From assembly GCA_038087875.1 (NCBI GenBank), contig CM075993.1, positions 6,946,001 to 7,010,000 of the forward strand: a stretch of DNA of 64,000 nt. The letters run 5' to 3'. This document shows positions 6,048 to 62,470 of the stretch, piece after piece. Each line of letters begins with the position of its first letter. Positions within the stretch are counted from its first letter, which is position 1. The translations under genes were made by a program, and so were the position numbers. This DNA comes from Malacoraja senta (taxonomy: Eukaryota). Under the pieces are notes generated by a model. It had not been told where the DNA came from. It ran no database searches and saw only the letters and a program-made list of their open reading frames with translations.

Positions 6048-6190
6048 CTCTTCTTCTTCTTGCGTATGGCGTGCACAGCCTAAAGTTGTAGGACAACTTG
6101 TTCTATTTGATCTTACTTGATTGTGCACGCCAGGTTGATTGCATTCGTCGAAACAGGGCGGACCACGTGAAGGTTGCAATCTCCCACCTC
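6048..6190 (-). mobile_element. ~140-bp retroposon with 5' HDV-like ribozyme and (AAG)n tail, copy A
   Basis: Near-identical to copies at 15368, 17860 and 41446. TSD ATTAAATTA(T/C)AT at 6036-6047 and 6191-6202. Confidence 0.85.
6138..6190 (-). ncRNA. Minimal HDV-like ribozyme, copy A (one P1 mismatch)
   Basis: GAGGTGG-GAG-ATTGCA-ACC-TTCACGT-GGT-CCGCCCT-GTTTCGA-CGAA-TGCAAT; putative catalytic C at 6147. Confidence 0.65.
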
Positions 6191-7149: not shown

Positions 7150-8100
7150 GTTGGCAAGCTGGATCTAAAATTAGCTTGGTGTAGCAGGCAAAAAGTAATG
7201 GTGCATGGATTATTTTCTGAATGGAAGTCTAGAACAAGTGGTGTACTACTGGGATCAGTGCTCGGACCATTGTTGTTTGTAAAATATATATAAATGACAT
7301 GGACAAAATGTATGTCCAATAGATTTGGAGGTTTGCAGATGACACGAAAATTGGGGAAAGTCATAAACAGATCGCCTGAAAATACGTTCAAAAAGAAACT
7401 GCAGATGCTGGAGAATCGAAGGTAGACAAAAGTGCTGGAGAAACTCAGCGGGTGCGGCAGCATCTATGGAGCGAAGGAAATAGGCAACGTTTCGGCCCGA
7501 AACCCTTCGGGTTTCGACCCGAAACGTTGCCTATTTCCTCTGGGTTTCGGCCCGAAACGTTGCCTATTTCCTTCGCTCCATAGATGCTGCCGCACCCGCT
7601 GAGTTTCTCCAGCACTTTTGCCTACCTTCGCCTGAAAATACTGCAGGACAAAGATCACTGGAAAAGTTGGGCAGAGGGATGGCAAATAGAATTTAATCCA
7701 GAAAAGTGTGCGGTAATGCATTTGGGTAAGTTGAATTGCAGGACATAAAGTAAATAGCAGGGAACTTGGGAGCATCAATGTACCTGTCGACAAGTCCATT
7801 GTTCCTAGAAAATGGCAACTCAGATGCATTGGGGCATACGGATAAGATAAATAAATAATCTCTCAGGGCAGGGAAGTCTAGAACTAGAGGACACACATTT
7901 AAGGTGAGAGGGGAAAAACTTAATCTATATGGAACGAACTGCCAGAGGAAGTTGGTAGAGCCGGATACAATTAAACATTTAAAAGACATTTGGACAGGTA
8001 CTTGGATAGGAAAGATATAGAGGGATTTGGGCCAAATGCAGACAAATAGGATTAGTGAAGATAGATATCACAGTCACCATGGATGAAGTGAGCCCAGAGG
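7150..8100 (+). mobile_element. Old degraded CR1 (RT region), interrupted by an insertion at 7386-7627
   Basis: Remnant translation SGVLLGSVLGPLLF, FADDTK-like codons, TRGHTFKVRG. Boundaries approximate. Confidence 0.7.
7386..7627. mobile_element. Inverted (hairpin) dimer of Penelope-associated short repeat
   Basis: Arms 7427-7500 and 7550-7630 are reverse complements; 14-bp TSD TCGCCTGAAAATAC at 7372-7385 and 7628-7641. Confidence 0.75.
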
Positions 8101-8186
8101 AATTAAATAAGGTGCTTGGTTCATAAACAGGTCGTCCCGTCCAGCTACTCCATGCGGTTGGGCAGAAAGCTCCTTGAATGGATATA

Positions 8187-9805
8187 CAGTGGCTTGCAAA
8201 AGTTTTCATACCTCTTGAACTTTTCCACATTTTGTCACGTTACAACCACAAACGTAAATGTATTTTATTGGGATTTTATGTGATAGACCAACGCAAAGTG
8301 GTGCATAATTGTGAAGTGGAAGGAAAATGATACATGGTTCTCAAATTTTTTTACAATTTAATAAACTGAAAAGTGTCACGTGCAAAAGTATTCAGCCCCC
8401 CTGAGTCAATACTTTGTAGAACCACCTTTCGCTGCAATTACAGCTGCAAGTCTTTTGGGGTATGTCTCTACCAGCTTTGCACATCTAGAGACTGACATTT
8501 TTGCCCATTCTTCTTTGCAAAATAGCTCAAGCTCAGTCAGATTGGATGGAGAGCGTCTGTGAACAGCAATTTTCAAGTCTTGCCAGAGATTCTCAATTGG
8601 ATTTAGGTCTGGACTTTGACTGGGCCATTCTAACACATGAATATGCTTTGATCTAAACCATTCCATTGTAGCTCTGGCTGTATGTTTAGGGTCGTTGTCC
8701 TGCTGGAAGGTGAACCTCCGCCCCAGTCTCAAGTCTTTTGCAGACTCTAACAGGTTTTCTTCCAAGATTGCCCTGTATTTGGCTCCATCCATCTTCCCAT
8801 CAACTCTGACCAGCTTCCCTGTCCCTGCTGAAGAAAAGCATCCCCACAGCATGATGCTGCCACCACCATGTTTCACAGTGGGGATGGTGTGTTCAGGGTG
8901 ATGTGCAATGTTAGGTTTCCGCCACACATAGCGTTTTGCATTTAGGCCAAAAACTTCAATTTTGGTCTCATCTGACCAGAGCACCTTCCTCCACATGTTT
9001 GCTGTGTCCCCCACATGGCTTGTGGCAAACTGCAAATGGGACTTCTTATGGCTTTTTTCCCAACAATGGCTTTCTTCTTGCCACTCTTCCATAAAGGCCC
9101 GATTTGTGGAGTGCACGACTAATAGTTGTCCTGTGGACAGATTCTCCCACCTGAGCTGTGGATCTCTGCAGCTCCTCCAGAGTTTCCATGGGCCTCTTGA
9201 CTGCTTCTCTGATCAATGCTCTCCTTGCCCGGCCTGTCAGTTTAGGTGGACGGCCATGTCTTGGTAGGTTTGCAGTTGTGCCATACTCTTTCCATTTTCG
9301 GATGATGCATTGAACAGTGCTCCGTGAGATGTTCAAAGCTTGGTATATTTGTTTATAACCTAACCCTGCTTTAAACTTCTCCACAACTTTATCCCTGACC
9401 TGTCTGGTGTGTTCCTTGGGCTTCATGATGCTGTTTGTTCACTAATGTTCTCTAACAAACCTCTGAGGCCTTCACAGAACAGCTGTATTTATACTCAGAT
9501 TAGATTACACACAAGTGGACTCTATTTACTAATTAGGTGACTTCTGAAGGCAATTGGTTGCACTGGATTTTATTTAGGGGTATCAGAGTAAAGGGGGCTG
9601 AATACTTTTGCACGCGACACTTTTCAGTTTTTTATTTGTAAAAATATTTGAAAACCATGTATCATTTTCCTTCCACTTCACAATTATGCGCCACTTTGTG
9701 TTGGTCTATCACATAAAATCCCAATAAAATACATTTACGTTTGTGGTTGTAACATGACAAAATGTGGAAAAGTTCAAGGGGTATGAATACTTTTGCAAGC
9801 CACTG
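8187..9805 (-). mobile_element. Full-length Tc1/mariner DNA transposon (DD34E, long IR/DR-type TIRs)
   Basis: Starts CAGTGGCTTGCAAAAG and ends CTTTTGCAAGCCACTG; TA on both sides (8185-8186, 9806-9807); ~215-bp TIRs with outer and inner TGCAAAAGT(A/T)TTCA repeats. Confidence 0.97.
8406..9426 (-). pseudogene. Tc1 transposase with one frameshift near 9055
   Basis: Paired-like HTH and GRPPKL in ORF 9046-9426; [14 protein letters not shown] and SPDLNPIE in ORF 8406-9116, with 34 residues between the second D and the E. Confidence 0.95.
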
Positions 9806-9833
9806 TACATGCTCCATTTATGCTCCATTCAAA

Positions 9834-9935
9834 GGTACACAAAAATGCTGGAGAAACTCAGCGGGTGCAGCAGCATCTATGGAGCAAAGGAAATAGGCAA
9901 CGTTTCAGGCCGAAACCCTTCTTCAGACTGATGAG
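9834..9935. mobile_element. Penelope-associated short repeat, monomer
   Basis: 14-bp TSD ATGCTCCATTCAAA at 9820-9833 and 9936-9949. Confidence 0.75.
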
Positions 9936-10778: not shown

Positions 10779-11296
10779 GGCGGCACGGTGACTCAGCGGT
10801 AGAGTTGCTGCCTTCCAGGGCTTGCAGCGCCGGAGACCCGAGTTCAATCCCGACTACGGGTGCTGTCTATACGGAGTTTGTACGTTCTCCCCGTGACCTG
10901 TGTGGGTTTTCTCCGAGATCTTCGGTTTCCTCCCACACTCCAAAGACGTACGGGTTTGTAGGTTGACACAAAATGCTGGAGTAACTCAACGGGTGAGGCA
11001 GCATCTCTGGAGAGAAGGAATGGGCGATGTTTCGGGTCGAGACATCACCTATTCCTTCTCTCCAGAGGTGCTGCCTCACCCGCTGAGTCACGCCAGCATT
11101 TTGTGTCTAGCTTCGATTTTAACCAGCATCTGTAATTCTTTCTTACACAGGTTTGTAGGTTAATTGGCTGGGTGTATGTGTAAAATTGTCCCTGGTGTGT
11201 GTATGACAGGTTTAGTGTGCGGGGATCGCTGGTCGGCGTGGAGTCAGTGGGCTGAAGGGCCTGTTTCCGCGCTCTATCTCTAAACTAAAAACTAAA
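10779..11296 (+). mobile_element. tRNA-derived V-SINE (HE1-like) with nested insertion
   Basis: A/B-box-like head, V-domain GGAGTTTGTACGTTCTCCCCGTG...TTCCTCCCACACTCCAAAGAC, CR1-like tail ending (CTAAA)n. Confidence 0.85.
10965..11149. mobile_element. Inverted dimer of Penelope-associated short repeat nested in V-SINE
   Basis: Palindromic arms centred near 11040; 12-bp TSD GGTTTGTAGGTT at 10953-10964 and 11150-11161. Confidence 0.75.
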
Positions 11297-12293: not shown

Positions 12294-14447
12294 AATGTAA
12301 AACTGTCTGTCCCTTCAGGTGACTGTTAACGGCCCCATAAAACAATTCTGAACAAGGACGTGGAGATTTTCCAGCTTTCCTGGTCAATTTCTATCTCTCA
12401 AACAATCTCACAAATAAATAGATTACTCGGACATGAAAAATGATACAGGGTGTGAGTGCTTCATTCTTTCTTTCCTCCATACTATTGTACTGCCAAATGA
12501 AAAATATCAACAATGAGCAACCTGAAATAGTTTGTTTTTTTATTTTTGCTAAGAAGCAACAGGATATCAATCCAAAGAAATTAATGAGAACACTTACCAT
12601 GGGAGGGACTTTAATGTTTGGGATTTTTTCAAATGAATCAAAGGTTATACAAATGCCATATTGTGGATAACGTGCAAATAGAGAATGATTTCTGAGAGAT
12701 TCATGTATAAATATAACCTCTAATAATACTGTGTATAGCTTCCTACATTAAAAAGTACTTAATTGAACAGAAAATATTTTGAGTGTCCTAAAAGGGATGT
12801 GAATGCAACTTTATAAATTTAAGCCTTTTTCTTCAGCATCTTCTTACGAGTCCTTCATCAACACGAGAAACATTGTCAGGAATATATTTTATTCATTGTA
12901 GGATGAAGCAAACACCAGAGAAGTGTTGCTCGATTTAAGGTCTTGGATAAAGATAAAATTCACAAAATAGAAGAAATGTTATCTGAACCCTAGTACATTA
13001 TAGCAGTATGTTGGCCGTTGATGGGTATTTAGCCCAATCATCATTCAAATCTACACTCTGCCATCATAACATCCACATGGAAATATGTAATGTAATGTTG
13101 ACAAGTGAAAGTTGTTACATTTTCAAAAGTTAAACCACGAAGGACTTACACAGTAAATGGTAGAGTTCTGGAGAGTGTTGTAAAACAGATCCATGGATGC
13201 TGGGTAAATAGTTCCCTGAAAGTGACAACACAGATAGACAGGTTAGTTAAGAAGGCATTTGGCATACTTGTCAGTCAGGGCACTGAGTACAGGAGTTGAT
13301 ACATCATGTTACAACCAAACTCCAGCACCAGAGGACAGGATCGATCCTGGGTCTCTGTCACTGTGAGGCTTTACCAGCTGCGTCACTGTGCCACTAGTTT
13401 TTTGTTTTAAATATGTTTCAATGATTTAGATGAAGAGAGCAAATCTATACAGATTGAAGGATAATATAAAAATAGATGGCAATATGAGCTCTGAGGAGGA
13501 TGTGGAGACATTTGAAAGGGATAGACAGGTTGTCACTGTACAAGGACATGACAGATGGAATATAATGTTGATGTGAAATGATCCACTTTTGTAGAAATAA
13601 TCGAAGAGCAGAGTGTTTTTTAAACTGATGAAAGCTGGAAAGATATTGGAGTGTAGAGGAACTTCTGTGTTCAGCACATACATATTAACAGAATCAAGAG
13701 ATGTAGAGTTGGTGTTGGAACGTGTGGCTGAGTAAAAGATCTGTCAATTATCTCTTTGAAGGTAGAGCAGATACAAGTGGGTGAATAGTTACTCCTGCTT
13801 CTAGTTTTTAAGTTCTAAGTAAATATCTCTGACTCCAGAACTAATTTCAGGAAAACCCCCCTCAAATGCAGCATATCTGACTAACGCTGCCAGCTAAGCT
13901 CAGGGAGAATGCTACAAATTATTCAGCTTACATTAGAACAGGTAAAGGAAACAGGCCTTTCTTGTATTTTTGGCAATAGATTGCAAAATGTGTTAAAATT
14001 AATCTATTAAGAACCCTGTCATTTGTATTATTCTGCATACTTGGCAAGAGATTTGGTACAAAGATAAAAAGTCCATGCTATAATAGAAACACACAGACTG
14101 TCAGTGATACGTTCATATGCATTATGCAATGATTCATGAAGTGCTTTAGTATGATTTCCTTAGTTAAACTGGTCACCTTTAGCAAAAATGTACACTGCCA
14201 CAGTACGTGAAAAGTTATGAAAGTGATGATTTCATTGTGAGAGTGATAATGTGGTTCTGTTACGCTCATAGAACACAGAACAGAACAGCACAGAAACATG
14301 TCCTTCAATCCATCAGTTGGTCATGTCCTTCATCCGTCAGTGCCGAACATGATGCTAAATTAAACGAATCCTGCCCTTCTGCATGATCTATACACCTGCA
14401 CAACTATGGGCCTATCTAAAAGCCTCTATTGTATTTGCCTCTACCAT

Positions 14448-14942
14448 TAGGGTTACCAACTGTTCTGTATTTGCCAGGACATCCCGTTTTTTGGGCTAAA
14501 TTGGTTTGTCCTGTACGGGACCGCCCTTGTCCCGTATTTGACTGCTACTACTTGGGTCGAGGGGACTGTCGAGTCGGAGCCCCGCCACACCCGTCCCGAC
14601 GTAGTGCAGCCCATGGAGTGCAGCAGCAGCGCCTCGCCCGTGGCCCCGTCGGTTGGCAGCCCGGCCGTCTGTCCGACCGTCGCTTGCCGCCGACACCACC
14701 ACCCCTCCTTCTCATGGCCGGTCATCGGTTCACGGGTTGGATGGGGTGGCGGACTTTACGGGCAACATCGCGTGGGCCAAAACTCCTCAGCTGGCCCGCT
14801 GGCTGGGCTTTGTGTGCATCCAGCACCCGGGCCAACTCATCATTCACCCAGCCACAGCCGAGTATGCACCTTGCCTTCTGGAGTTTGTCCCTTATTTTTA
14901 TCTTTTGTCCCTTATTTGGGAGTGAGAAAGTTGGCAACCCAA
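14448..14942. mobile_element. Non-autonomous hAT element (TAGGGTTGCCA-type TIR)
   Basis: TIRs TAGGGTTACCAAC / GTTGGCAACCCAA; 8-bp TSD TCTACCAT (14440-14447) / TCTACCAG (14943-14950); inserted in an old minus-strand CR1. Confidence 0.85.
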
Positions 14943-15367
14943 TCTACCAGCACCCCTATCAGCATGTGACAGGTACCTACCACACTCTATGTAGAAATAC
15001 ATGCCCTGTGCATCTCTTTTAAACCTATCCCCTCTCATCTTAAAGCTATGACCTTCAGTATTTGACATTTCCATCCTGGGGAAAAAAGCTTTAACTGTCT
15101 ACCCTATCTATTCCTCGCATCATTTTGCAAACTTCCATTAGATCTTCTTTCAGCCTCTGATGTTCCAGAGAAAACTATTTAACTTTGTCCAACTTCTCCT
15201 TATAGCCAACAAATCTAATCCAGATAGCATGCTGGTAAACCTCTTCTGCACCCTCCCCAACACCTCCATATCCTTCTTGTAATACAGAGACCAGACCTAC
15301 GCACAACACTCCAACTGTTGTCACTCCACTGGATCCTCGACTTCCTGACCAACAGACCCCAATCAGT

Positions 15368-15420
15368 GGGGTGGACGATTGCGACCTTCACGTGGTCCGC
15401 CCTGTTTCGACAAATGCAAT
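15368..15420 (+). ncRNA. Minimal HDV-like ribozyme, copy B
   Basis: P1 GGGGTGG/CCGCCCT, P2 ATTGCG/TGCAAT, P3 ACC/GGT, L3 TTCACGT, J4/2 CAAA (C at 15411). Confidence 0.75.
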
Positions 15421-15506
15421 CAACCCGGCGTGCACAATCAAATAAGATCAAATAGAACAAGTTGTCCTACAACTTTAGGCTGTGCACGCCATACGCAAGA
15501 AGAAGA
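15368..15506 (+). mobile_element. ~140-bp retroposon with 5' HDV-like ribozyme and (AAG)n tail, copy B
   Basis: TSD AGACCCCAATCAGT at 15354-15367 and 15507-15520; cleanly interrupts a LINE RT sequence. Confidence 0.9.
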
Positions 15507-17058
15507 AGACCCCAATCAGTGAGTATCGGGGACAAATCATCCTCCACGATAATCCTCAACATGGGGCTCCACAAGGATGCGCTCAGCCCCCATCTTCACT
15601 CCTTGCACACCCAAGACTGCGCAGCTATGTACAAATCTAATTCAATTTCCAAATTCGCTGACGACACCACCATTGGAGGACGGATGTCAAATAATGAGGA
15701 GACGGAGTACAGGAAGGAGATTGAGTAACTCGTGTCTTAACGTCAGCCAGACAAAGGAGATAGTGATCGACTTCAGAAAGCAAAGTGGTTCACATACCCC
15801 AGTTTGCATTGAAGGTGCCGAAGAAGAGATGGTCGAAAACCTCAAATTCCTAAGAGTCAATATCACCAACACCTTCTCCTGGACCACTCATGTTGAAGCA
15901 ACGACCAAGACGGCACACTTCCTCTACTTCCTTAGATGGCTTAGGAAGTTTGGCATATCCCCTAAAACTCTCACCAACTTCTACAGATGCACCGTAGAAA
16001 GAATTTCATCAGGATGCATCACAGCTTGGTTGGGAACAGCTCCATCCAGGACCGCAAGAAATTGCAGCGAATTGTGGACGTAGCCCCAGCCATTACACAA
16101 ACCAACCTCCCTTTCATCGACTCCATTTATACCTCATGCTGCCTCGGCAAGGCCAGCAGCATAATCATGGACGAGTCGCATAATCCTGGCTACTCCCTCT
16201 TCTCCCTCTACCATCAGGAAAAAGGTATAGAAGTGTGAAAACGCACACCACCAGATTAGGGACAGTTTCTTCCCAGCTGTTATCAGGCAACTGAATCATC
16301 CTACCACAACCAGAGAGCAGTGCTGAACTACTATCTCTTTAATAACCCTCAGACTATCCTTGATCAGACTTTGCTGGCTACACCTTGAACTAAACGTTAT
16401 TCCCTTATCATGTATCTATACACTGTAACTGGATAGATTGTAATCATGTTACAGTGGTGCAGCGGTAGAGTTGGTAGAGGGTCGCTGGTTGGTGCAGACT
16501 CGGTGGGCCAAAGGGCCTGTTTCCACGCTGTATCTCTAAACTAAAATGCATTGTCTTTCTGCTGACTGGTTAGTATGCAACAAAAGCTTTTCACTGTACC
16601 TCGGTACATGTTTATCTTTATCTACTGTGTTACCACTTTCAGAGAGTTAAGGGCTTGGACTTCAAGATCTCTCTGTATATAAATGCTGTTCACAGTCATG
16701 CCATCAATTGTATACTTTCCTCTTACATTTGACCTCTCAAAGTGCAACACCTCAAATTTACCTAGATTATACTCCATCTGCTACTTCTCCGCCCATATCT
16801 GCAACTATCTTTTGACAGCCTTTTTCGTTGAATTTTAGGGGAAAGTACTAAACTGGTGTAGGGTAAATTACAACATTATTAAACATGAGCTACGGAGAGT
16901 TAATTTGAAACAGCTGTTATGGGATAAGTCCACATCTTACATATGTGAATCATTTAAAGGCAAGCAGATCAAAGTTCAAGACCGGCATGTTCCAATAAAG
17001 GAGAAGGAATGTTTGCTTTGTTTGCAAACTCACTAACGAACTCATCTACATTTTAATC

Positions 17059-17184
17059 TGAAGAAGGGTCTCGACCCGAAACGTCACCCATTCCTTCTCT
17101 CAAGAGATGCTGCCTGTCCCGCTGAGTTACTCCAGCATTTTGTGTCTACCTTCGATTTAAACCAGCATCTGCAGTTCTTTCTTA
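17059..17184 (+). mobile_element. Penelope-associated short repeat with minimal hammerhead-like core
   Basis: CTGAAGA-A-GGGT-CTCG-ACCC-GAAA-CGTC at 17058-17085; 12-bp TSD TACATTTTAATC at 17047-17058 and 17185-17196. Confidence 0.75.
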
Positions 17185-17859
17185 TACATTTTAATCCTAG
17201 TCATTTATGTATATCACAAACAACAGATATCCCAGCAGAGATCCCTGCAGAACACCAGTGGTCACGGATCTCCAGCCAGAATATCATCCTTCCACGACTA
17301 CCATCTATGGTTAAAGCAGTTCAGAATCCAACCCATCATTATCCAAGGTTCCATTACCTTGCTATCCTTGTCCCTGGTCCTTACTGGAACTACCGGTCCC
17401 GAAATCAAATTAGCTTATTTAAACGATTCACACGTCTGATGTGGACTTACCCAATAACAGTTGCTGTAAATTAACTCTCTCTAGCAGCTGCCTAATAATG
17501 TTGCAATTTACTCAACCTCATGTTAGTACTATCCCCAAGGTCCAGACTTATTCATAATTATCTTACAACTTTGAGGTATTGTGATTACTGTCCCCAAAAC
17601 GTTCTCCCACTGAAATGCCGGTCACATGGCCAAGCTCTTTCCATAAGACCATATAATTTCCCAATAAAGTATGACCCCTCCTCTGGTTGGACTATTCACA
17701 TACTATTTCAAGAAGCCCTCTTGGATATACCTAACAAATTCTGCCCTGTCTAAGCCACTTGCACTCAGCAAGTCCTATTCAATATTAGGAAAGTTAAAGT
17801 CACCGAATACGACAACTCTGTTGCTTTTACATTTGTTTCATAATCTGAGCACATATCTT

Positions 17860-17912
17860 GGGGTGGGAGGTTGCAACCTTCACGTGGTCCGCCCTGTTTC
17901 GACTAATGCAAT
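17860..17912 (+). ncRNA. Minimal HDV-like ribozyme, copy C
   Basis: P1 GGGGTGG/CCGCCCT, P2 GTTGCA/TGCAAT, P3 ACC/GGT, J4/2 CTAA (C at 17903). Confidence 0.75.
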
Positions 17913-17996
17913 CAACTCGACGTGCACAAACAGAAGATCAAATAGAACAAGTTGTCCTACAACTTTAGGCTGTGCACGCCACACGACAGAAGAAGA
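17860..17996 (+). mobile_element. ~140-bp retroposon with 5' HDV-like ribozyme and (AAG)n tail, copy C (diverged variant)
   Basis: TSD AGCACATATCT at 17848-17858 and 17997-18007. Confidence 0.88.
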
Positions 17997-18310
17997 AGCA
18001 CATATCTGTTCCTCTATCTGGCTATTGGGAGGCCTATAGTATAATCCCATCAGAGTGATTGCATCCATCTTATTTTTAAGCTCTGCCCATATTGCCTTAG
18101 TGGATGATCCTGCCAGTAAAGCTGTGACATGCTCCTTGATTGAGAATGTAACTCCTCCACCTCTTAACCTCCCTCTCTATCACACCTGAAACGCAAAACC
18201 CAGGAACATTGAGCCTCCACTCCTGCTCCTCTCATAACCAAGTCGCTGTGAAACTCGTAACATGTTCGATATAAATCTGGGTGTGTGTTTAAACATTCGT
18301 GATGAAAGAT

Positions 18311-19109: not shown

Positions 19110-19502
19110 CAAAGATCCTATAGCGAGCAAGATAGCCCACTTGACGGAAAAGACGTAGTATGATCATGGGCAGATGTATGGGAACTTTCGGCCCCATTTC
19201 CGTAACCGGCTTCCGTCTCCGCACCAAAGATCCCATAGATACTAGTGCGGAGACGGAAGCCGGTTACGGAAACATCCTTGTAAAAATAAAAGTTCTTTGG
19301 TAAAAATCTTCTCCTCATTTTCAGAATTATAATTTATTAACACAAACTGTTCCCCCGCAACGTTGATTACACTGCGAGTCGGGTCGGGTCGGGTTACTGA
19401 AATGGATGAAAAAAAGGCCCACGTTCCGCTCCGTTGCGTACTACACGTCAGCCCATTGCATTTAGCAGGAGTGGTCTATCTTGCTCCGCTATAGGATCTT
19501 TG
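19110..19502. mobile_element. MITE with ~33-bp TIRs and 8-bp TSD (probably hAT)
   Basis: CAAAGATCCTATAGCGAGCAAGATAG... / ...CTATCTTGCTCCGCTATAGGATCTTTG; TSD CTAGTAAC at 19102-19109 and 19503-19510. Confidence 0.9.
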
Positions 19503-20794: not shown

Positions 20795-21237
20795 TGTTAG
20801 ATAGATAGATAGATAGAATCTTTATTTGCCACACGACCAGGGTTGGTGGTATTTGGGTTCGGTAATAAGGAAGGAACTGCAGATGCTGCAAAATCGAAGG
20901 TACACAAAAATGCTGGAGAAACTCAGCGGGTGCGGCAGCATCTATGGAGCGAAGGAAATAGGCAACGTTTCGCGCCAAAACCCTTCTTCAGACTGATAGG
21001 GGGTGGGGGGAAGAAAGGAAAAAAGGAAAAAGGCGGAGGAGCCCGAGGGCTGGGGGAGGGGAGGAGACAACCAGAGGGCTGATGAAGGGGAGGGGACAGC
21101 AAGGGCTAGCAGAATTGGGAGACAACCAGAGGGCTGATGAAGGGGAGGGGACAGCAAGGGCTAGCAGAACAGCCCTCGGGCTCCTCCTCCGCCTTTTTCC
21201 TTGCCGCACCCGCTGAGTTTCTCCAGCATTTTTGTGT
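20795..21237. mobile_element. Composite Penelope-associated insertion with partial inverted arm
   Basis: 15-bp TSD ACTCAAAGAAATAAG at 20780-20794 and 21238-21252. Confidence 0.7.
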
Positions 21238-22129: not shown

Positions 22130-22475
22130 TTCATCATCATCATTGAAAACATCAACGGACACGGTGCCTCACAATGCTATGTACGATGTGATCGCAACTT
22201 CTACTGAAGTGTGGATGGCAGCTGGCTCGCTAGGAGGGTGTGCACAATCAAATAAGATCAAATAGAACAAGTTGTCCAACAACTTTAGGCTGTGCACGCC
22301 ATACGCAAGAAGAAGAAGAAGGCTCGCTAGGAGCTCATCCGCCCTTTGACAGGTCTTGTTTTTGGTCCTGCTGAGGGTCCACAGCCCCCTCCTCACCTGG
22401 CAAACCAGGTGGGGGAGACGGTTTAGTCGTCGACTATCCGACCAAGGAGCAGGTAGCACGTGATTATCCCCCCCG
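22130..22475 (-). mobile_element. RTE-related short element with (TGA)n tail, interrupted by copy D
   Basis: (CAT)n on plus at 22130-22143 and a GC-rich structured body; family assignment tentative. Confidence 0.4.
22237..22320 (+). mobile_element. 5'-truncated copy D of the ribozyme retroposon (ribozyme absent)
   Basis: Hairpin domain plus (AAG)n only; TSD GGCTCGCTAGGAG at 22224-22236 and 22321-22333. Confidence 0.88.
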
Positions 22476-23162: not shown

Positions 23163-25046
23163 CTAGACAAACTGGTCACACGGGAGGCCTGGTCCCCCAA
23201 CGCAACCCGTTCCCCTTATTCCAGCACTCACCCATAGCCGATAACTGCGCAGGGGCTGCTCATTTTGCCTGATTCAGCCTCCCTCATTTTTAAACTTTAA
23301 AAAAATACTAGACCAAGGGGGACCCGTTGGGTCCCGTCCCCTCAACGCGCAGTTGCGGAGGATTGGCCTGCGGCGTCACACACACACACTGTGGAGGGGG
23401 ATGAGAGAGGGGGGAAGGGGGTGGGAGGAGGAGGGGGGGAGACGGGGGAGAGGGAGTAGAGAAGGGGAGGGGGAGGGGAAGAGGGGGAGGGGGGAGAGGG
23501 GGAGGTTGGGGGGAGTTGGGGAGGGCTGGAGGGGGTGCAGAGGGGGGAGGGGGAGAGAGAGAAGGGGAGAGAGCGGGGAAGGGGGAGAGAGGGAAGGGAG
23601 GGGGAGGGAGATGGAGGGGGAGGGGGAGAGGGAGGGTGAGAGTCGAGGAAGGGGGTGAGAGGGGAAGGGGGGAGGAGGGGGGGAGTGGGGTGGGCTGGAG
23701 GGGGGAAAGGGGGGGAGGGGGAGAGAGAGGAGTGGAGAGAGAGGGGGAAGGGGGGAGAGAGTGGGGAGTGGGGAGAAGGGAGAGTGGCGGGGAAGCGAGA
23801 GTAAAGGGGAAGAGGAGGGGGAAAGAAGAAGGGGGGGAGAGGAGGGGAGAGAGAGGAGGGGAGAGAGGAGGTGGGGAGAGAGGAGGTGGGGAGAGAGCAC
23901 TTGCTAGGGCGAGCAGAACTCATTGTACTTGGATACCAACAATGCTGCGAGCAGGGCTAAGCACAGGGCTATGCACAGGGGAAAAGCTGTTTTTTTTCCG
24001 TTTCTGCATATTTGTGAACATTTTCATTAAAAAAAATAATAACTCGGGAAATAATGCATCAAATTTTCAGATGAGACGATTTTTGACATCATGGCGTAAA
24101 TCTCTATCGGAATATGTAAAAATTTCACCGTTAGCGCGTCGTGTTTTTGAGGAGATGTGAAACGCAGACGAACACACAAATACACAAATAAATACACACA
24201 CATCCAAGATCAGAGTTTTATAAGTATACTAGACCAAGAGCAGACCCGTTGGGTCTGGACCCCGAACGTGCTTCAGACCCCGGGGCGAAAATCGCTCGCG
24301 AAAGAAAAAAATGGCGGCCTTTTTGGAGCAGAGCCGGTCGGCAGCAGCCGTTATGGTGGCTGGCCAGCAGGAGGAGACAAAATGAGTGAGTGGGGGGGGG
24401 GGGGGGGGAGAAGGATTTTATTAAAAATGTGTACATAAACACGACGAAATTTAATCAGGAGTGGATACTTGGAATGAAAAGTGAAATCTCTACCGAAATG
24501 GAAACAATCTCGGCGTTTCTGCGTGTGGTGTTGGCGTAGCAACGAATCAAAAGAAGGCTGGCACCCACAAGACAGGCAGAAACACACACACAAGGCAGAA
24601 ACACACACACACACACACACACAGAGTTTTAAATACTAGACCAAGAGCAGACCCGTTGGGTCTGGACCCCGAACGTGCTTCAGACCCCGGGGTCTGGTTC
24701 CCGAGCGTGCTTCAGATTTTTTTTAAATTGCGTCGTTTTTGGAGCAGAGCCGGGCGGCAGCAGCCGTTATGGTGGCTGGCCAGCAGGAGGAGACAAAATG
24801 AGTGAGTGGGGGGGGGGGGGGAGAAGGATTTTATTAAAAATGTGTACATAAACACGACGAAATTTAATCAGGAGTGGATACTTGGAATGAAAAGTGATAT
24901 CTCTACCGAAATGGAAAAAATCTCGGCTATTTTGCGTGTGGTGTTGGCGTAGCAACAAATCAAAGGCTGGCTGGCACTCACAAGACAGGCAGAAACACAC
25001 ACACACACACACAGAAACACACACACACACAGTTTTAAAGATAGAT
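23163..25046 (-). mobile_element. Cluster of non-autonomous Helitrons, head-to-tail
   Basis: CTAG termini at 23163, 23308, 24229 and 24636. The last three are preceded on minus by a hairpin such as GGGACCC-AAC-GGGTCCC or CAGACCC-AAC-GGGTCTG. No TSD. Confidence 0.75.
23391..23897. repeat. Polypurine G-rich low-complexity tract inside Helitron
   Basis: Almost pure G/A on plus. Confidence 0.95.
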
Positions 25047-34257: not shown

Positions 34258-34406
34258 GAAGACGCAAAGTGCTGGAGTAACTCAGCGGGACAGGTTGCAT
34301 CTCTGGAGAGATTCCTTCTCTCCAGAGATGCTGCTTGTCCCACTTAATTATTCCAGCTTTTTGTGTCTACCTTCGATTAAACCAGCAACTGCAGTTATTT
34401 CCTACA
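34258..34406. mobile_element. Short inverted dimer of Penelope-associated repeat
   Basis: GCTGGAGTAA...GCATCTCTGGAGAGA / TCTCTCCAGAGATGC...TTATTCCAGC. Confidence 0.65.
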
Positions 34407-34825
34407 CTCTAGATAATGAATGGTTTCAGGTACAGATTAATAACGACTTATTGAATGGTGGAGCAGATTCAGGGGCTGAATGATAAACTCCTATTTGCTT
34501 TGTTAAAATTAATTCTTAGCCTTGACGTGGGTTTGTCTACATTATTCACTTTTGTAAGATATGCTGTCAAGGCCATGGAATCACAAAACATTCTGTTATG
34601 TCTTTCATATAATCACCAAGGATGGATGGTATCTTTACATACTTTAATACGTGTTTAATCACGTGCCAAATAATTTAAAAACTCTTAACTATTAACATTA
34701 ATGGAATTGGAGAGGCTTTCGTTCACTGAGCTTAAAGATTCATCGCCTTCGGGATGAAGACATTTCTCTTCATCTCTATCTTGATGGTTGACCCACTATT
34801 TTGAGACAGTAACACTTGTTGCAAA

Positions 34826-41175: not shown

Positions 41176-41314
41176 TGTCCTACCTTGATGTTGCAAAATC
41201 CATCACCACACTTATCAAGATTAAATTCTATCTGCCAATGCTCTGCCAAACTTTCATTTGATTAATATCCTACTGTAGCCTCAGGCAAGCCTTACTCACC
41301 CTGCTGACCTTCTT

Positions 41315-41446
41315 CTTCTTGCGTATGGCGTGCACAGGAAAGTTGTCGGACAACTTGTCTATTTGATCTTATTTGATTGTGCACTCCAGGTTGATTGCAT
41401 TCGTCGAAACAGGGCGGACCACGTGAAGGTTGCAATCTCCTACCCC
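41315..41446 (-). mobile_element. ~140-bp retroposon with 5' HDV-like ribozyme and (AAG)n tail, copy E
   Basis: TSD GCTGACCTTCTT at 41303-41314 and 41447-41458 (overlaps the tail); small deletions in the hairpin domain. Confidence 0.85.
41394..41446 (-). ncRNA. Minimal HDV-like ribozyme, copy E (one P1 mismatch)
   Basis: GGGGTAG-GAG-ATTGCA-ACC-TTCACGT-GGT-CCGCCCT-GTTTCGA-CGAA-TGCAAT; C at 41403. Confidence 0.65.
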
Positions 41447-42927
41447 GCTGACCTTCTTAAATAAAGGAACAACATTAGGTATATTCCCAGTGTTCTGGAA
41501 TCTCATATTGTGGCTAACGAAGATGCAGAAATCTCTTCCAGGCCCCAAGCACTCTCCTTCCTCGTTTCCCATAACATCATGGGATAGAATACTTTCAAAG
41601 ATGCTCAACCTCTTATAGCTTCATTTCTTACTGTGCTTATCCCATCAAATATTTTTCACACTTCCTGCTGAACCACAATGTCATCATTGTCCTCTTACTT
41701 TGTGAAGGCAGGTGCAATATATTCATTCAATATATTCTTACCCTTATCCTCTGTCTACACATAGAGATTACCTTTGTGGCCCCTAATAGGCTGTGCTCTT
41801 TCTGCATTTATCCCCTTGCACTCTATATAGTTATGCAACATTTTTGAATGATTACTTTGATATGTCCTCCCTTATATTATCATGCCTTCTCTTTGCTCTT
41901 TGAATTTTAATCAATTTAATTTTAAATTCTTAATTTTGCCAAAGCACTCTCTTTACTAATCTATATTTTTCTGCAGGCTCTCAGTCTGATACAAGCTCTT
42001 CTTTTTGCTTTTTCTTACACACCATACAGCTTGTCATCCAGGGGCTCTAGGTGTGGCAGATCTACTCTTTATGTTTAGGGCAGTATATTACTCTGAATCC
42101 CTTGGATCTTCTTTCTGAATGCGCTCTACTGCACTGATACTGATATTTGTACATATCACTCTGTTTACAAAATATAATGGACTCAGCAAATAAAGGCTTA
42201 ACTGTTCTCACATCCCCTAAAGCTTGAATGTTATCAGTCTGGAAGAATCTGTAATTTGAAAAGTACCAACTTCCATGATTCTGAAAAACTGATTCCAAGC
42301 AGTTATGACAGTGATCATATCTCTCATGTACCAGAAAACCACAAAAATATCTGAATGGTGTTTCTCAATATTGTTGTGAAGTGCATAATTTTTAACCTCA
42401 AGTAGCTACAAAGCATTTTTATTAACTTTGTTACGATCTAATCGTATTTTGTCTCATAATATTTTATAATAGCCTTCAAAATTAGTTTCAACCAAAGTTA
42501 ATATCAGAGATTCAGTATATTCCATCTCTTCTATCACTATTATATTGCATTCCTATTGTCCTTGTTGATTTTAAGCCACTATTGATTTTACCTTACAGAT
42601 GTCATTGAAGACACCTAATTGACCCTTCCCCTGAGGTGAATTCCCCATGGAGAACGTCTATGGGAATTATTTTATAATTTACTTGGTGCATACGATCAAG
42701 CCATCAAATGCATTGAAGGCTGAGTGGTGTGAATACGTTGGGACATCATACTTTTTGATTCTCTTTTACATCGCTTCTTTCGATGTTTCCCTATCGAGTA
42801 TTAACAACACAGACTTTGTACACACAGATTTTTGATAGCTCAGTATGGTGAGGGCTCAGCAACTACTTTCTACATTACAATAATCTTCTACCAAATAAAT
42901 GCAAGCCCCAAATCAGTCCAAGAGGTG

Positions 42928-43162
42928 TATAAGAAAGAACTGCAGATGCTGGTTTACACCGAAGATAGACACAAAATGCTGGAGTAACTCAGCGGATCAG
43001 GCAGCATCTCTGGAGAAAAGAAATAGGTGAAGTTTTGGGTCGAGACCCTTCTTCAGACTTCAGGGAGTGATGAAGAGTCTTGACCTGAAACATCACCTAT
43101 TCCTTTTCTCCAGAGATGCTGCCTGACCCGCTGAGTTACTCCAACATGTTGTGTCTATCTTC
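42928..43162. mobile_element. Inverted dimer of Penelope-associated short repeat
   Basis: 42961-43057 and 43068-43162 are approximate reverse complements; each arm ends in the hammerhead-like core. Confidence 0.75.
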
Positions 43163-45390
43163 ATTCCATAAGCTACTGGGGATGTTCTTCTGCATGTGTC
43201 ATCACATCATTAAAAAAAAGAAATCTCTAATGAGGACCATAATTACTTTTGGTTTTACTCTGAATCTGGACAGTTGTGTCTATTTCCATTTTTAATCTGC
43301 ATGCTGTGACTAAAATGGAACAACTGCATCTATTTTCTAGACTTTTGTTTGCACCTACTGGGCATTTTAGAAATAAGAATTATCCAATAAGAATTAAATT
43401 CCCTTATAATCACATAATATAATGGTATGGAGCTGCTATTTTGAACTTTGTATAGCATCTGTAACCTCTATATTCAACTGATGACTAATTATGGCAATCA
43501 CACTCCACCAGTGCTTCTTAAAGTTTGAGGCACAAAGTAAAGAAATCCCCAGTGGCAGACCAGAACCACCTGATCTTTTAAGTCTGCTACATTTCCCATA
43601 TGTCTTATTTTAAATTACATAATCACTTCTATATTGTATTTCAAAATATTAGCTTCTGACATAAATCACCAATACTTCCTTCCACCATTTCCCCTGGGGA
43701 ACTGGTTTCATAGATTTACTATTCATTCATTGAAATAATGTTCCAACAGGTTGGTTTTAAATTTAACCCTTTACAAGGAAGGCTGATCCAGGCAGCAGGA
43801 AATTGGGTCATGCCTTATGTTATCTTATGTTATCTTAACACAAGGCATAACCCAATTTCCTGCTACCTGGAACTGCCTATTAGATTACAAAACACTAAAG
43901 TCCTGCAGCATGAATGTAGAGAGTTATCTAGCAAACTAAAGCGAAGGATGTCTAAGATTGTATTCTCTTGATCACTTCCAGTGCGATATGCTAGTAGGTT
44001 TAGAAATAGGAAGATGTTAGATAAATGGGTGGCAAAAGGCTGTTGTAGGAGGGAGACTGAAAAGATGTATAGAGCTACAATGAAATATTGAAAGAAATAT
44101 ATCAGTCCAATGGGCAGGCCCGGCATTGGCATGCAAAATTTTTGTGTGGTTTGGAAGGCTAAATTGCATCCATTTTAATGCAAGAAGGCTGACTGTAAGG
44201 CAGAATAACTTAGACCACATGGGGATATGATATTGTTGCATTGCAGAAACATGGTTGAAAGAAAGGCCAGATTGGTGTCTCAGTGTTTCAAGGCAGAGAA
44301 GTTTTGGGTGTGATCGTGTGGGAAATAAAACTGTTGGCATTGCAATACTGCAATACTGATTAATGGGACCATTACCTGTAGTAATGCCATATGCTCAAAC
44401 TAAAGATGCTGAAGCCAACTTGACATTCACAAAATGCTTCAACATGTGTCAACTTGTCTTCTCTTTGGCACATCAGGTTTTTATGGAGCAAACCCATTGT
44501 ATTAAAGACACACAGAATTACAGGAGAAATAGATACAGGATCAAAATGGACTCAGTGTTAAAAATTTGCCTGCAATGTCTGAAGAAATAAGATCTGTATT
44601 TCAAAACTATTTTCAAACTGACATGCAAATTCTCAATTTTCTCATTTTAGCAGATATTTACACATTCCTACCATAGCATTAAACTCTCAAAATTTGCAAA
44701 CTGAGGAATTTAAAGGTCAATTATCACTCTTACTTGAAAAACAGACCATTACATAATTTGTTCTGAACCTGACTGCCCTCCCAAGTTAAATACTCTAAAG
44801 GTTAACATAGATTTGCTTTTATGGGGCTAAAATGTAACTCGGTGCTGGTTTGCCTTACAATGGGTATAATGGTCCACTAGAAGAACTTTGACTTGAGCTA
44901 AGCATGTTTTTCTGTCTTCTCTTATATCTTTAAATTTTCTGTCTTATTGTTAATCTGCAAAATATAATTTCGAGGGATAAAATTTGGCAGCTCACAATAA
45001 CATGTAATCCGACTACTTTACTTTTATTTTCAGTGTCTCTCTCTTCTTAAGCATGGTAATAAGAACATAAGGAAAAGGAATGGGAGTAAACCACATGGCC
45101 CCTCAAGGCTTCTTCACCATTCACTAAGTTTGTGACTGATCTGATCTTTGGTCCAAAATCATTTTCTTCTTCAATTCCCCTGCAGTCCAAACATCTATCT
45201 CAGTCTTGAATACACACAAAGATGGTCACAATGCTGTCCAAAAGAATCCCACAGTTCCAAAGACCTATATAGGAAGAAATTCATTCTCATCTCAGTCATA
45301 AATAAGAGACTTTTTATCCTGGAACTATTTCCTCTAGTTCAAGACTCTCCCCCACAGAAAACATATTTACATCAGCTTTAAGATGTAGAG

Positions 45391-52600: not shown

Positions 52601-53403
52601 GGATCTTTTAAAATTTGAGAGTTAAATCTCCAGAATGAATTATTCTTAGACAATCCTTCCAGTTTTAAAAAGAAAGTTAGTGGAGAATGGTCTGAAATTG
52701 AATTTGTATGATATATTGCATTAGATGTTTGGGGGATTAATTTTGTATCCAGCAGAAAGTAGTCTATACGTGAGTATGTCTTATGTACCATTGAGTAAAA
52801 CGAATATTCCCTGCCAGTTGGATTCACAATTCTCCAAACATCTGCTATATTAGTGTTGTTTATGTAGGTATTGAGGAGTTCCCCAGTTTTCGATTTCATA
52901 TTCCCTCTCTGTTTTTGACTTGATTTATCTAAGTACGGGTCTAAAACACAATTAAAGTCTCCGCCTATTATAACATTTTGATAGTTTGACTCTGCAATTA
53001 TATTGAAGATTTTATTGAAAAAGTGGGGGTTATCAAAGTTAGGGGCATATATATTTACCAAAGTAAGTGGAGTGTCATGGATTTCTCCATTAACTATTAG
53101 GTATCTCCCTTCTATATCTGTTATAATATTCTTTGCTTTAAATGGTATACCTTTTCTTATGATAATTGACGTGCCTCTAGATTTTGAAGTGAATGAAGAG
53201 TGGTATGTTTGACCTATCCATTTCGCCCTCAGCCTAACTTGGTCCTGAGGTTTTAGGTGTGTTTCTTGTAGGAAGGTAATGTCAGAATTATACATTTTTA
53301 GCTGAGCTAATATCTTACCCCTTTTGATAGGTTCATTAATACCTCTTATATTCCAACTACAAAATGAGACTCCTCCTAGGTTCTTTTGTGTGGTGTCATG
53401 CAT
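49612..53403 (-). pseudogene. L1 ORF2 (APE endonuclease, RT, CCHC) with a single in-frame TAA at 51895-51897
   Basis: SWNIRG, QETH, GDFN, SDH; LDAEKAFD, LYADD; CDKC..H..C. The 502-aa and 760-aa ORFs are in frame and abut (CAA TAA ATG). Confidence 0.95.
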
Positions 53404-54208
53404 TTTGAATAATTATAGTACCTTTGAATCTTGTGGTGCGTCCATATCCCAGGTCTTTAGGTATTGGGGGAGTTTTTGAATTATTAACTTTTGTTGGTAT
53501 GTCCATATTATTCTTATCACTAAACACAAAACACAAACAAGTGATTTTATGTAATAAAAAAAAAACTAAAAAAGTGAGGCTACAGTGTCTATAGTCGGCA
53601 CTGTAGCAAGTGACCCACCTGTAGGTGGGAAAAAACCTTATTTTGACTTCCATTGCGTTGTTGCTCAACTCGCTCCGCTCTCTTAGTTAATCATAACATA
53701 TTAAAATATTAAAACGAGGCCTCACATTCATATATATAATACAATTTTACCCTGATATTTCCTTATAACATATATATATATCAGAGTTTAATTATTAAAC
53801 CAATATTTTTGATTTCAATAAGAATCAGCTGTTGGTTGAAGGGGTTAACGAGACGTGCTCCTGGACATAAGCCAGGAGCTCGTTTCTCATCCCCTCCTCC
53901 CGCTTATAGACAAGGTTACAATTTATTAAAAATTCATATTAGTATGTTAGTTCATTATTTTTTTGTTTTTTTTGTTAGTATTCTAATCTAACCTGCATAA
54001 CTTTTAAAGTTGTTAATAGGATAAGTTCTTACAATTGGTTATAACATTTTAATCAATAAGCAATTATTTTCTAATTCATATCCCGTTATAAAGTTGTTTA
54101 CACGTTTTGAACAGAAAATGTCCTTGCTTCAACATTCCGGAGATAACAGTGTAACTATCCCCAGACAAAACATAGCTGAGAATTATTCGGATCTGCCAAA
54201 GCTCCCTT

Positions 54209-61648: not shown

Positions 61649-62470
61649 ATGTTTCTATGTTTCAAATCATATCGTGGCAAATCGTAATCGTAATGGTGGC
61701 GGAGCATAGATTTAAGATCAATGTCCAGAGGCCACAAGAGGAAAGAAAACTGCAGGGAAATGGAACCGTGGATTAGTCGGATGAAGCTGCAAAATAGAGG
61801 CAACCTTCAAATTACTGCAGGGGTTGATTTCCTAGAAAAAGATCCACAATTCCCATTTTCCATGGTGAAGCACATCATCCATCAAGAAATACAGTGGAAT
61901 AGAAAATTGTGCATATTTAGGCTTTTAGGTAGGCACATGAATATGCAGGGATTGGAGGGACATGAATCAGTTGCAGGCAGAGATTTGTTTAATTTGGCAT
62001 TATAATCGGCACAGATATTGTGGGCCTAAGGGCCTGTTCCTGCGCTGTACCATGCTAAGTTCTGTGTCACATAAATCACGTGAGCGTGAATTTTATTCCA
62101 TATCCAAAATATCTGGGTAGTGATTTGTCATCATCTACATGGAATCGCCAGCCCGCAAATTATGATTGATTTCCTTTGTCAGAGCACGAAGTGTGTGTGT
62201 GTGAGTGTGTCTGTCTTTCTGTCTCTATGTCTGCATATGTATGTCTGTGTGAGACGAAAAGTTGGAGTAACTCAGCAGGTCAAGCAACATCTCTGGAGAA
62301 AAGGAATAGTTGACGTTTTGGGTCGAGACCCTTCTTCAGACTCACAGGGGAAAGGGAAACAAGGTATATTATGGAAAAAATGAAAAAAGTTTAGTATATA
62401 TATATGTGTGTGTGGGGATATATATGAAATTATATATATATACACGCACACACACACACACGCACATATA

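What the first reader, a model, noticed from the sequence alone, without database searches (positions are those of the whole stretch)
15421..15506. 3' half of the ribozyme retroposon is a nested hairpin plus (AAG)n tail, a likely LINE recognition signal
Seen: TGGCGTGCACA...TGTGCACGCCA (11-bp inverted repeat in copy A, 10 bp here) encloses a second hairpin AAGTTGT-CCT-ACAACTT, followed by TACGC(AAG)n. Inference: the element is a short internally deleted derivative keeping only the 5' ribozyme and 3' terminus of an autonomous LINE, analogous to RIME/NARTc of ingi/L1Tc or R2 SIDEs. CTACAACTTTAG could be the last codons of the parent ORF. My best guess for the partner is the Ingi/Vingi group, with RTE as an alternative. 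The partner is not in this window.
Basis: partly seen in the sequence, partly recalled or inferred. Interest (0 to 1): 0.7.

Follow-up and report, generated by a model that had tools for sequence, protein, structure and literature searches.

The report
Tiny ribozyme-headed Vingi hitchhiker retroposon
A 141-letter, very abundant jumping element appears to keep only the self-cutting RNA front end and the last 42 letters of a Vingi-type retrotransposon; the nested hairpin is formed between these two ends, a hint that such retrotransposons may be recognised by pairing their front to their back.

Summary
The hairpins and tail are real (z = -4.1). They are the 3' half of a 141-nt retroposon (15368-15508). 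Five copies lie in the window, each with an 11-15 bp target-site duplication. Four start with a P4-less HDV-like ribozyme fold.

The partner left a trace. In 4 of 4 sequencing runs laid, other contigs share only 15467-15508. Their upstream letters read in frame as AVLAWMSTLD into the window's CTA CAA CTT TAG. That fits the C-terminus of RNase-H-less Vingi-like ORFs. The 3'UTR, the (AAG)n tail and the ribozyme footprint point to the same subclade. Two other bipartite Vingi derivatives turned up.

One correction: the 5' arms of both hairpins lie upstream of the junction, so the nested hairpin is not a local 3' signal copied from the LINE. It pairs the 5' part with the 3' part. Whether this reflects a conserved Vingi 5'-3' pairing is only hinted at.

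The parts
15354..15368 (+). Left target-site duplication (up to 15 bp; last base is also the element's first G; 12 bp unambiguous, 15356-15367)
   Evidence: identical to 15507-15521
15368..15421 (+). Minimal HDV-like ribozyme fold: P1 15368-74/15397-15403 with G.U at base 1; P2 15377-83/15415-21; P3 15384-86/15394-96; L3 TTCACGT 15387-93; single-pair P1.1 via G15404; no P4 helix; putative catalytic C15411
   Evidence: (descriptor: 4 sense copies plus 1 antisense chance hit in the window, 0 in 20 shuffled windows); activity not tested
15414..15416 (+). ATG inside the ribozyme 3' end. In copy C (17906) it opens a 20-codon frame ending in VVLQL* at the putative LINE stop; in this copy the frame is shifted by 2 nt
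15427..15436 (+). 5' arm of the outer stem, starting about 5 nt after P2; upstream of the LINE-3' junction
15459..15475 (+). Inner hairpin AAGTTGT-CCT-ACAACTT; the junction with the LINE-shared part falls in its loop (15466/15467)
15467..15478 (+). CTA CAA CTT TAG: last three codons and stop of the putative partner ORF (first base of the LINE-shared segment)
   Evidence: loose ends in 4 of 4 runs
15479..15496 (+). 18-nt 3'UTR, containing the 3' arm of the outer stem (15481-15490) and the terminal ATACGC
   Evidence: 15 of 21 columns identical to the stop plus 3'UTR of Vingi-like L074
15497..15508 (+). (AAG)4 microsatellite tail
15507..15521 (+). Right target-site duplication (first 2 bases overlap the tail)
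6050..6190 (-). Copy A, full length, 11-bp outer stem, 12-bp TSD with one mismatch
17860..17998 (+). Copy C, 2-nt shorter subtype with the in-frame mini-ORF, 11-bp TSD
22237..22321 (+). Copy E, 5'-truncated at the outer stem's 5' arm, 13-bp TSD, (AAG)5
41309..41446 (-). Copy D, full length, 12-bp TSD overlapping the tail

Best explanation
The element is a bipartite, non-autonomous derivative of a single-ORF Vingi-clade LINE. How it most likely works: (1) a copy is transcribed by read-through or an internal promoter (inferred); (2) the 54-nt HDV-like ribozyme cuts the RNA before G1 and gives a precise 5' end (fold shown, cleavage inferred); (3) the Vingi APE-RT protein, supplied in trans, recognises the RNA by its LINE-derived ends, the last 42 nt with the (AAG)n tail and probably the 5' part, and copies it by target-primed reverse transcription (inferred; TSDs and a 5'-truncated copy are shown). 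It probably arose by one internal deletion joining the first ~16 codons of the ORF to its last 3 codons. CTACAACTT may have been a microhomology present both at the start of the endonuclease domain and at the ORF end (inferred). The nested hairpin is pairing between the retained 5' part and the retained 3' part, not a stem-loop lifted whole from the LINE's 3' end.
For: Five copies with fixed ends and TSDs, one 5'-truncated. Held by runs of 7 coded organisms. Loose ends before 15467 in 56, 27, 6 and 3 contigs of runs X1, X10, X16, X17, with a shared consensus reading AVLAWMSTLD in frame with the window's LQL*. Scored against the last 13 residues of 120 Ingi/Vingi-like proteins: 9 of 45 RNase-H-less rows (3 families) reach 25-26; 0 of 75 RNase-H-bearing rows exceed 12; background frequency of 25 or more is 5.8e-5. 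Vingi-like L074 ends ...WLASTELEI* followed by a near-identical short 3'UTR and (AAG)n (1 and 0 of 20,000 shuffles as good for copies B and C). The ribozyme read as protein matches residues 2-18 of Vingi-like P0131/P0132, best of 183,973 windows, 10 of 17 identical. L074 and P0023 (same cluster as P0131/132) group at 96/93 inside an RNase-H-less clade at 98/95. That subclade's endonuclease starts [VI]LQLN in 5 of 5 protein rows. The same ribozyme architecture heads Vingi-like L054 and Repbase Vingi-2_Gav as printed in PMC5786205's supplement. L072 and L152 are independent bipartite Vingi derivatives with AAG-type tails.
Against: The partner itself was never retrieved: only a 30-letter consensus of loose ends (agreement 0.58-0.94) is seen, and no RT of it was classified. 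Searches for it found nothing. No loose end continuing from the 5' part into an endonuclease ORF appears among the rows shown (421 rows hidden), so the LINE origin of 15422-15466 and the microhomology are unproven. L074 was picked after the fact as the best of the few 3' ends seen. The terminal ACG is not diagnostic: BovB (RTE) also ends GGACACG before its tail. Rfam found no ribozyme at its gathering scores. 'Vingi' is assigned to my reference ORFs by domain content and 5'-end likeness to Vingi-2_Gav, not by a labelled sequence in the tree.
Confidence: 0.8

Rival explanations
1. Same kind of element, but the partner is an RTE-clade or RNase-H-bearing Ingi LINE.
For: RTE and Ingi also make bipartite derivatives and carry 5' ribozymes (PMC5786205, whole text parts 1-4). 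BovB ends in GGACACG plus a microsatellite and shares a 10-nt word (CCTGGCGTGC) with copies A's middle part. The partner's RT was not seen.
Against: The loose-end peptide fits only RNase-H-less C-termini. 3'UTR, tail and ribozyme footprint point to one RNase-H-less subclade. The BovB 3' end printed does not resemble the loose end. C, not T, is the majority base at 15426 in both DNA runs, which breaks the shared word. Only one RTE 3' end was compared.
Confidence: 0.07
2. Chimeric origin: the 3' 42 nt come from a Vingi LINE, but the ribozyme and middle (15368-15466) come from another element, or the 5' arms were created in the SINE by local inversion or template switching. The hairpin would then be a SINE-specific stabilising or ribozyme-insulating structure.
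For: No partner 5' end was seen. The outer stem is 11 bp in copy A but 8-9 bp in C and D, so it may have strengthened within the SINE. Pairing energies in L072 and L152 are no better than shuffles. Tail exchange is common in SINEs (PMC5786205).
Against: The ribozyme footprint and the 3' end independently point to the same Vingi subclade. Copy C's ATG frame runs without a stop into VLQL, the subclade's endonuclease start.
Confidence: 0.1
3. One reading: the nested hairpin is a stringent-type 3' stem-loop inherited whole from the LINE's 3' end.
For: The structure is strong and adjacent to the tail; 3' stem-loops are common in stringent LINE/SINE pairs (PMC3747384 passage). The outer 5' arm lies 31-40 nt before the junction, just beyond the 30 letters shown for the loose end.
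Against: In 4 of 4 runs the 30 letters upstream of 15467 in the putative LINE differ from the SINE and lack the inner 5' arm. The shared 42 nt alone fold at only -5.9 (A, B) or -3.6 (C) kcal/mol.
Confidence: 0.03

Closest known systems
Internally deleted non-autonomous Vingi derivatives (Vingi-1_EE family; Kojima et al. 2011 as cited in PMC5786205; the 2011 paper itself was not held)
   Same: Only the 5' and 3' ends of a Vingi LINE, no small-RNA head, microsatellite tail, TSDs. Same 5' architecture as Vingi-2_Gav (L3 TTCACGT, P1 ending CCCT-G).
   Different: Very short (141 nt); ribozyme without a P4 helix; strong pairing between the 5' and 3' parts. Vingi is not among the six ribozyme-bearing clades listed in PMC5786205. 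Repbase and Dfam could not be checked.
NARTc/L1Tc and RIME/ingi of trypanosomes (PMC3185411, passages; PMC5786205)
   Same: Short bipartite element sharing a 5' HDV-like ribozyme with a 3-bp P3 and a 1-2 bp P1.1, beginning at +1 of the element.
   Different: Their ribozyme is 77 nt with a P4 helix; the partner is an RNase-H-bearing Ingi-clade LINE. Here the partner's traces fit the RNase-H-less sister clade and the tail is (AAG)n.
R2 SIDE elements (PMC3414825, search listing and abstract start only)
   Same: Internally deleted LINE that keeps the 5' ribozyme and the 3' end needed by the protein.
   Different: R2 is site-specific in 28S rDNA; this element is dispersed with 11-15 bp TSDs.
Minimal (P4-less) HDV-like ribozymes, drz-Mtgn-1 and theta ribozymes (PMC10879173, passages)
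   Same: Double pseudoknot without P4; catalytic C first in J4/2.
   Different: Those were found in metagenomes and gut phages beside tRNAs; this one heads a high-copy animal retroposon and is untested for cleavage.

Membership tests
Bipartite non-autonomous LINE (PMC5786205) | 3' end identical to the 3' end of a coding LINE | tested here: met
   last 42 nt shared with contigs whose upstream letters read as a Vingi-like ORF end; only 30 upstream letters seen
Bipartite non-autonomous LINE (PMC5786205) | 5' part identical to the 5' end of the same LINE | tested here: inconclusive
   Partner 5' end not retrieved; indirect match to the N-termini of P0131/P0132 and to the endonuclease start motif
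Bipartite non-autonomous LINE (PMC5786205) | No tRNA/5S/7SL head | tested here: met
   No tRNA and no Rfam family at gathering score in the window; the element starts at the ribozyme's G1 next to the TSD
Bipartite non-autonomous LINE (PMC5786205) | Dispersed copies with TSDs, simple-repeat tail, 5' truncation | tested here: met
   5 of 5 window copies have 11-15 bp TSDs and (AAG)3-5; 1 of 5 is 5'-truncated
Vingi clade (partner) | Single ORF with APE and RT, no RNase H (PMC13708176 passage) | not testable with these tools
   Partner ORF not recovered. The best-matching references have this layout
Vingi clade (partner) | RT falls in the RNase-H-less clade related to Ingi | tested here: inconclusive
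   Shown for the look-alikes L074 and P0023, not for the partner itself; no labelled Vingi sequence in the tree
Vingi clade (partner) | ORF C-terminus, short 3'UTR and tail like those of Vingi-like elements | tested here: met
HDV-like ribozyme | Nested double pseudoknot: 7-bp P1 starting at G1, P2, 3-bp P3, L3, P1.1 | tested here: met
   pairs differ between this family and L054 while staying paired; no covariation among the 4 window copies
HDV-like ribozyme | Catalytic C at the start of J4/2 | tested here: met
   C15411 in 4 of 4 full copies; the next base varies A/G/T
HDV-like ribozyme | Match to a curated Rfam HDV-like model | tested here: not met
   0 hits at gathering score; E-value mode not run
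HDV-like ribozyme | Self-cleavage before G1, lost on C-to-U change | not testable with these tools
   Needs an in vitro assay; contigs cannot show RNA ends
Stringent LINE/SINE 3' stem-loop | Stem-loop lies wholly within the segment shared with the LINE 3' end | tested here: not met
   Junction at 15467 splits the inner hairpin; both 5' arms lie upstream
RTE-derived bipartite element (Bov-A type) | 3' end homologous to an RTE 3' end | tested here: inconclusive
   Only BovB's printed 3' end compared by eye; element motifs absent from the supplement's RTE/SINE alignments

The most novel reading that the evidence does not exclude
Vingi LINE RNAs fold their two ends together: a 10-12 nt arm about 4-6 nt after the 5' ribozyme pairs with the short 3'UTR just before the terminal ACG and tail, and this panhandle is what the RT recognises. 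The 141-nt element is that structure with the ORF looped out. This would explain why only a few LINE clades give bipartite non-autonomous elements (called unexplained in PMC5786205) and why Vingi template RNAs carry both UTRs. Hints: the best site for an element's own 3'UTR lies 4-6 nt after P2 in copies A, C and in L072, and at nt 47 in L152; the same holds in 1 of 35 heterologous pairs, L050 x L075 (11 of 12 bp, same contaminating genome, family link unproven). Against: L072 and L152 energies do not beat shuffles, and no full-length element was examined.
Probability: 0.3. Interest if true: 0.75.

Novelty: new member of a known kind. Interest (0 to 1): 0.5.

Why it matters
As it stands, this is a very compact, abundant non-autonomous Vingi-type retroposon: 141 nt, about one copy per 13 kb in this window. 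It defines a natural minimal template for a LINE clade now used as an RNA gene-writing tool (PMC13708176). It also puts a P4-less HDV-like ribozyme fold at the Vingi 5' end. I found no paper describing that: 6 papers hold both 'Vingi' and 'ribozyme', and the three relevant ones did not link them in the text I read. Patents, Repbase and Dfam were not searchable. If the 5'-3' pairing proves general, it answers why Vingi makes bipartite elements and gives a directly testable design rule for template RNAs.

Tried and rejected

Searches for the partner's DNA found nothing. The loose-end motif gave 0 hits in viral and metagenome contigs. A 3'UTR word gave 4 chance phage hits. An ORF-end-plus-3'UTR pattern gave 0 viral and 13 metagenome hits, all 13 without an RT ORF or tail. 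RT searches of viral contigs were empty.

Protein searches with the element's own frames found only two other translated SINE copies, P0002 and P0005, plus three unrelated repeats. None came from the N-terminal frame among 224-2000 aa proteins, and the ESM Atlas gave only sub-0.9 leads. These are weak negatives. PDB holds no close RT for the window's CR1-like query. A sample of 301 genomes related to G002 gave no further Vingi copy.

Hammerhead on the minus strand was considered by eye and dropped, because the plus strand fits the HDV-like descriptor. My first descriptor had a parsing bug, fixed. The pattern had the wrong spacing, redone. The L036 3' segment was mis-cut, corrected.

L054 x L042 pairing looked suggestive by eye but is not significant (p 0.13-0.35). 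L050 and L072 have degraded ribozymes that fail the descriptor; L152's 5' end is too degraded to fold. RNA runs X16 and X17 are only guessed RNA, so expression is not shown. Exact element motifs occur in 0 papers; 'panhandle' with non-LTR and ribozyme terms occurs in 0 papers. Kojima 2011 and Ruminski 2011 were not held. Earlier scan findings: none relevant.

Full report
1. Observation. The letters are as described. The outer stem is 15427-36 with 15481-90 (10 bp; 11 bp in copy A). The inner hairpin is 15459-65 with 15469-75 around the loop CCT. TACGC and (AAG)4 follow, ending at 15508. The stretch folds at -23 kcal/mol, z -4.11, with 0 of 200 shuffles as good. The four full copies keep 95.7% of 140 paired cells but show no compensatory change, so within the window the structure rests on energy, not covariation.

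2. The element. A BLAST of the region against the window finds five copies: A 6050-6190 (-), B 15368-15508 (+), C 17860-17998 (+), D 41309-41446 (-), and E 22237-22321 (+), which is 5'-truncated. All five have 11-15 bp target-site duplications. There is no tRNA and no Rfam family in the window. Runs of 7 coded organisms hold the sequence (18 of 23 listed rows with at least half the words); 14,000-15,000 contigs of each of two DNA runs lay on it (not a copy number). The neighbouring repeats look like those of sharks and rays; that label is recalled and was not tested.

3. The 5' half. Positions 15368-15421 fit an HDV-like double pseudoknot: 7-bp P1 with a G.U pair at base 1, 7-bp P2, 3-bp P3, L3 TTCACGT, a single possible P1.1 pair, no P4 helix, and C15411 opening J4/2. 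A descriptor finds the four full copies plus one antisense chance hit, and 0 hits in 20 shuffled windows. Across runs the base after the C varies freely (A, G, T), while the C is changed in under 3% of depth; that this base is unconstrained in HDV is my own knowledge. P4-less HDV-like ribozymes are active (PMC10879173, passages). Cleavage here is not shown, and Rfam models did not detect it.

4. The partner's trace. No genome is held, so I laid contigs of four runs on the element. In 4 of 4 runs, contigs (56, 27, 6 and 3) match only from 15467 to the end and carry a common different sequence upstream (agreement 0.58-0.94). In X1 and X17 it reads AVLAWMSTLD, in frame with the window's CTA CAA CTT TAG (LQL*). 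It also fixes the junction: only the last 42 nt are shared. The 5' arms of both hairpins lie upstream of it, the inner 5' arm is absent from the loose end, and the shared part alone folds at -5.9 kcal/mol.

5. Which clade. Direct searches for the partner failed. I obtained references through a recalled RT motif, which hit eukaryotic LINE pieces contaminating three bacterial or archaeal MAGs (5 LINE-like loci of 28). From these came 120 of 164 full-length relatives. In a tree of 31 of the 120, 4 loci and 2 window RTs, the 20 RNase-H-less rows form one group (98/95). That layout (APE plus RT, no RNase H, related to Ingi) is how PMC13708176 describes Vingi (passages). Their 5' ends (L054, and degraded L050 and L072) resemble Vingi-2_Gav as printed in the supplement of PMC5786205. 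Three signals then point to Vingi, two of them to one subclade. (i) The loose-end peptide plus LQL scores 25-26 against the last 13 residues of 9 of 45 RNase-H-less rows (3 families) and at most 12 against 75 RNase-H-bearing rows; background frequency is 5.8e-5. (ii) L074 ends WLASTELEI*, then a 17-nt UTR and (AAG)n; stop plus UTR align at 15 of 21 (copy B) and 17 of 21 (copy C) columns, with 1 and 0 of 20,000 shuffles as good. L074 was the best of five 3' ends seen, chosen after the fact. (iii) The ribozyme read as protein best matches residues 2-18 of P0131/P0132, 10 of 17 identical, score 45 against 31 for the next of 183,973 windows. These proteins cluster with P0023, which is sister to L074 (96/93). 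Against: BovB, an RTE, also ends in ACG before its tail, and the partner's own RT was never seen.

6. Origin. In subtype C (also a recurrent form in the runs: 68 and 54 contigs) an ATG at the ribozyme's 3' end opens MQSTRRAQTEDQIEQVVLQL*, in frame with the putative LINE stop. In the matching subclade the endonuclease begins [VI]LQLN in 5 of 5 protein rows and in L152. I infer one in-frame deletion between a CTACAACTT at the endonuclease start and the same letters at the ORF end. This is not shown: no contig continuing from the 5' part into an endonuclease appears among the loose ends listed (421 rows hidden). Two other bipartite Vingi derivatives turned up in G002. L072 is about 416 nt, with no TSD found. 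L152 is about 500 nt with an 11-bp TSD and belongs to the L074 family. Both keep the ORF start, the ORF end, a short UTR and an AAG-type tail.

7. What the hairpin is. It pairs the retained 5' part with the retained 3' part. Either the LINE itself pairs its ends over 3 kb, or the pairing arose in the SINE. I tested other Vingi-like ends. With 30-nt and 20/24-nt segments, self-pairing of the window copies is significant (p 0.001-0.007). L050 x L075 gives p 0.005-0.007, but the two may not belong to one family and 24-27 such cells were tried. L072 with itself gives 0.09-0.28, and L054 x L042 is not significant. By position, the best site for an element's own 3'UTR lies 5, 6 and 4 nt after P2 in copies A, C and L072 (99, 97 and 300 nt searched), and at nt 47 of 300 in L152. 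Only 1 of 35 heterologous pairs with a defined P2 does so, again L050 x L075. Energies beat shuffles only for copy A (0 of 60) and nearly for L050 x L075 (4 of 60); C, L152 and L072 give 14, 39 and 55 of 60. This is a hint, not a result.

8. Mechanism. Shown: fixed ends, TSDs, truncation, fold compatibility, a 3' end shared with a coding-like sequence. Inferred: read-through or internal-promoter transcription, ribozyme cleavage at G1 as for L1Tc/NARTc (PMC3185411, passages), and trans-mobilisation by a Vingi APE-RT through target-primed reverse transcription. Hypothesised: recognition of a 5'-3' panhandle.

9. Comparison with what is known. It works like NARTc, RIME, R2 SIDEs and the deleted Vingi-1_EE derivatives. 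PMC5786205 (main text parts 1-4 of 5 and supplement passages) says only RTE, Ingi, Vingi and R2 give such elements, for unknown reasons, and does not list Vingi among ribozyme-bearing clades. Searches found no paper with this family's motifs, none tying Vingi to a ribozyme in the text read, and none on a panhandle (one search listed 6 papers, of which I read PMC5786205 and passages of PMC6765202). A chondrichthyan SINE paper does not mention ribozymes or Vingi (PMC5499810, term search). Kojima 2011 and Ruminski 2011 were not held, and Repbase, Dfam and patents were out of reach, so the family may already be catalogued.

10. Verdict. Observation confirmed; interpretation largely right about kind and partner, wrong about the hairpin being a local 3' signal. 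New member of a known kind, interest 0.5. The panhandle reading has probability about 0.3 and would deserve 0.75.

Noticed in passing
window 49612-55279 (-): Nearly intact two-ORF LINE, L1/Tx1-like by recall: ORF1 356 aa; ORF2 split by one stop into a 505-aa endonuclease part and a 760-aa RT part.
   Followed up: partly
window 8406-9438 (-): Tc1/mariner-type transposase (DDE_3) in two overlapping frames, with inverted repeats 8182-8400 / 9593-9810.
   Followed up: no
window 7392-7630, 9829-9935, 10957-11149, 17053-17188, 20865-20997, 34260-34407, 42926-43166, 62251-62363: A second abundant short repeat family, often as head-to-head palindromic pairs; identity not determined.
   Followed up: no
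window 19197-19272: Strong GC-rich palindrome with arms of about 27 bp; possibly a MITE.
   Followed up: no
window 24164-25039 and 62766-63287: A direct duplication of about 410-bp period at 85% identity, and a tandem array that stays open in several frames.
   Followed up: no
window 22237: Truncated copy E begins exactly at the outer stem's 5' arm, as if reverse transcription ended at the base of the stem; one case only.
   Followed up: no
L020, L029, L036, L040, L042, L050, L054, L074 (G001-G003): Three GTDB species-representative MAGs contain eukaryotic LINE sequence, many contigs in G002: host contamination of prokaryotic reference genomes.
   Followed up: partly
L072 reverse strand about 1399-1815; L152 reverse strand about 1183-1686: Two further internally deleted Vingi-like elements (about 416 and 500 nt) that keep ORF start and end and an AAG-type tail; L152 has an 11-bp TSD.
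   Followed up: yes
L054 4-78: Clean HDV-like ribozyme fold with a P4 helix directly upstream of a Vingi-like endonuclease ORF.
   Followed up: yes
window 15462 (run X16): Two contigs share the element from 15462 on with a different upstream sequence (median 135 letters); perhaps a truncated copy or a second partner family.
   Followed up: no
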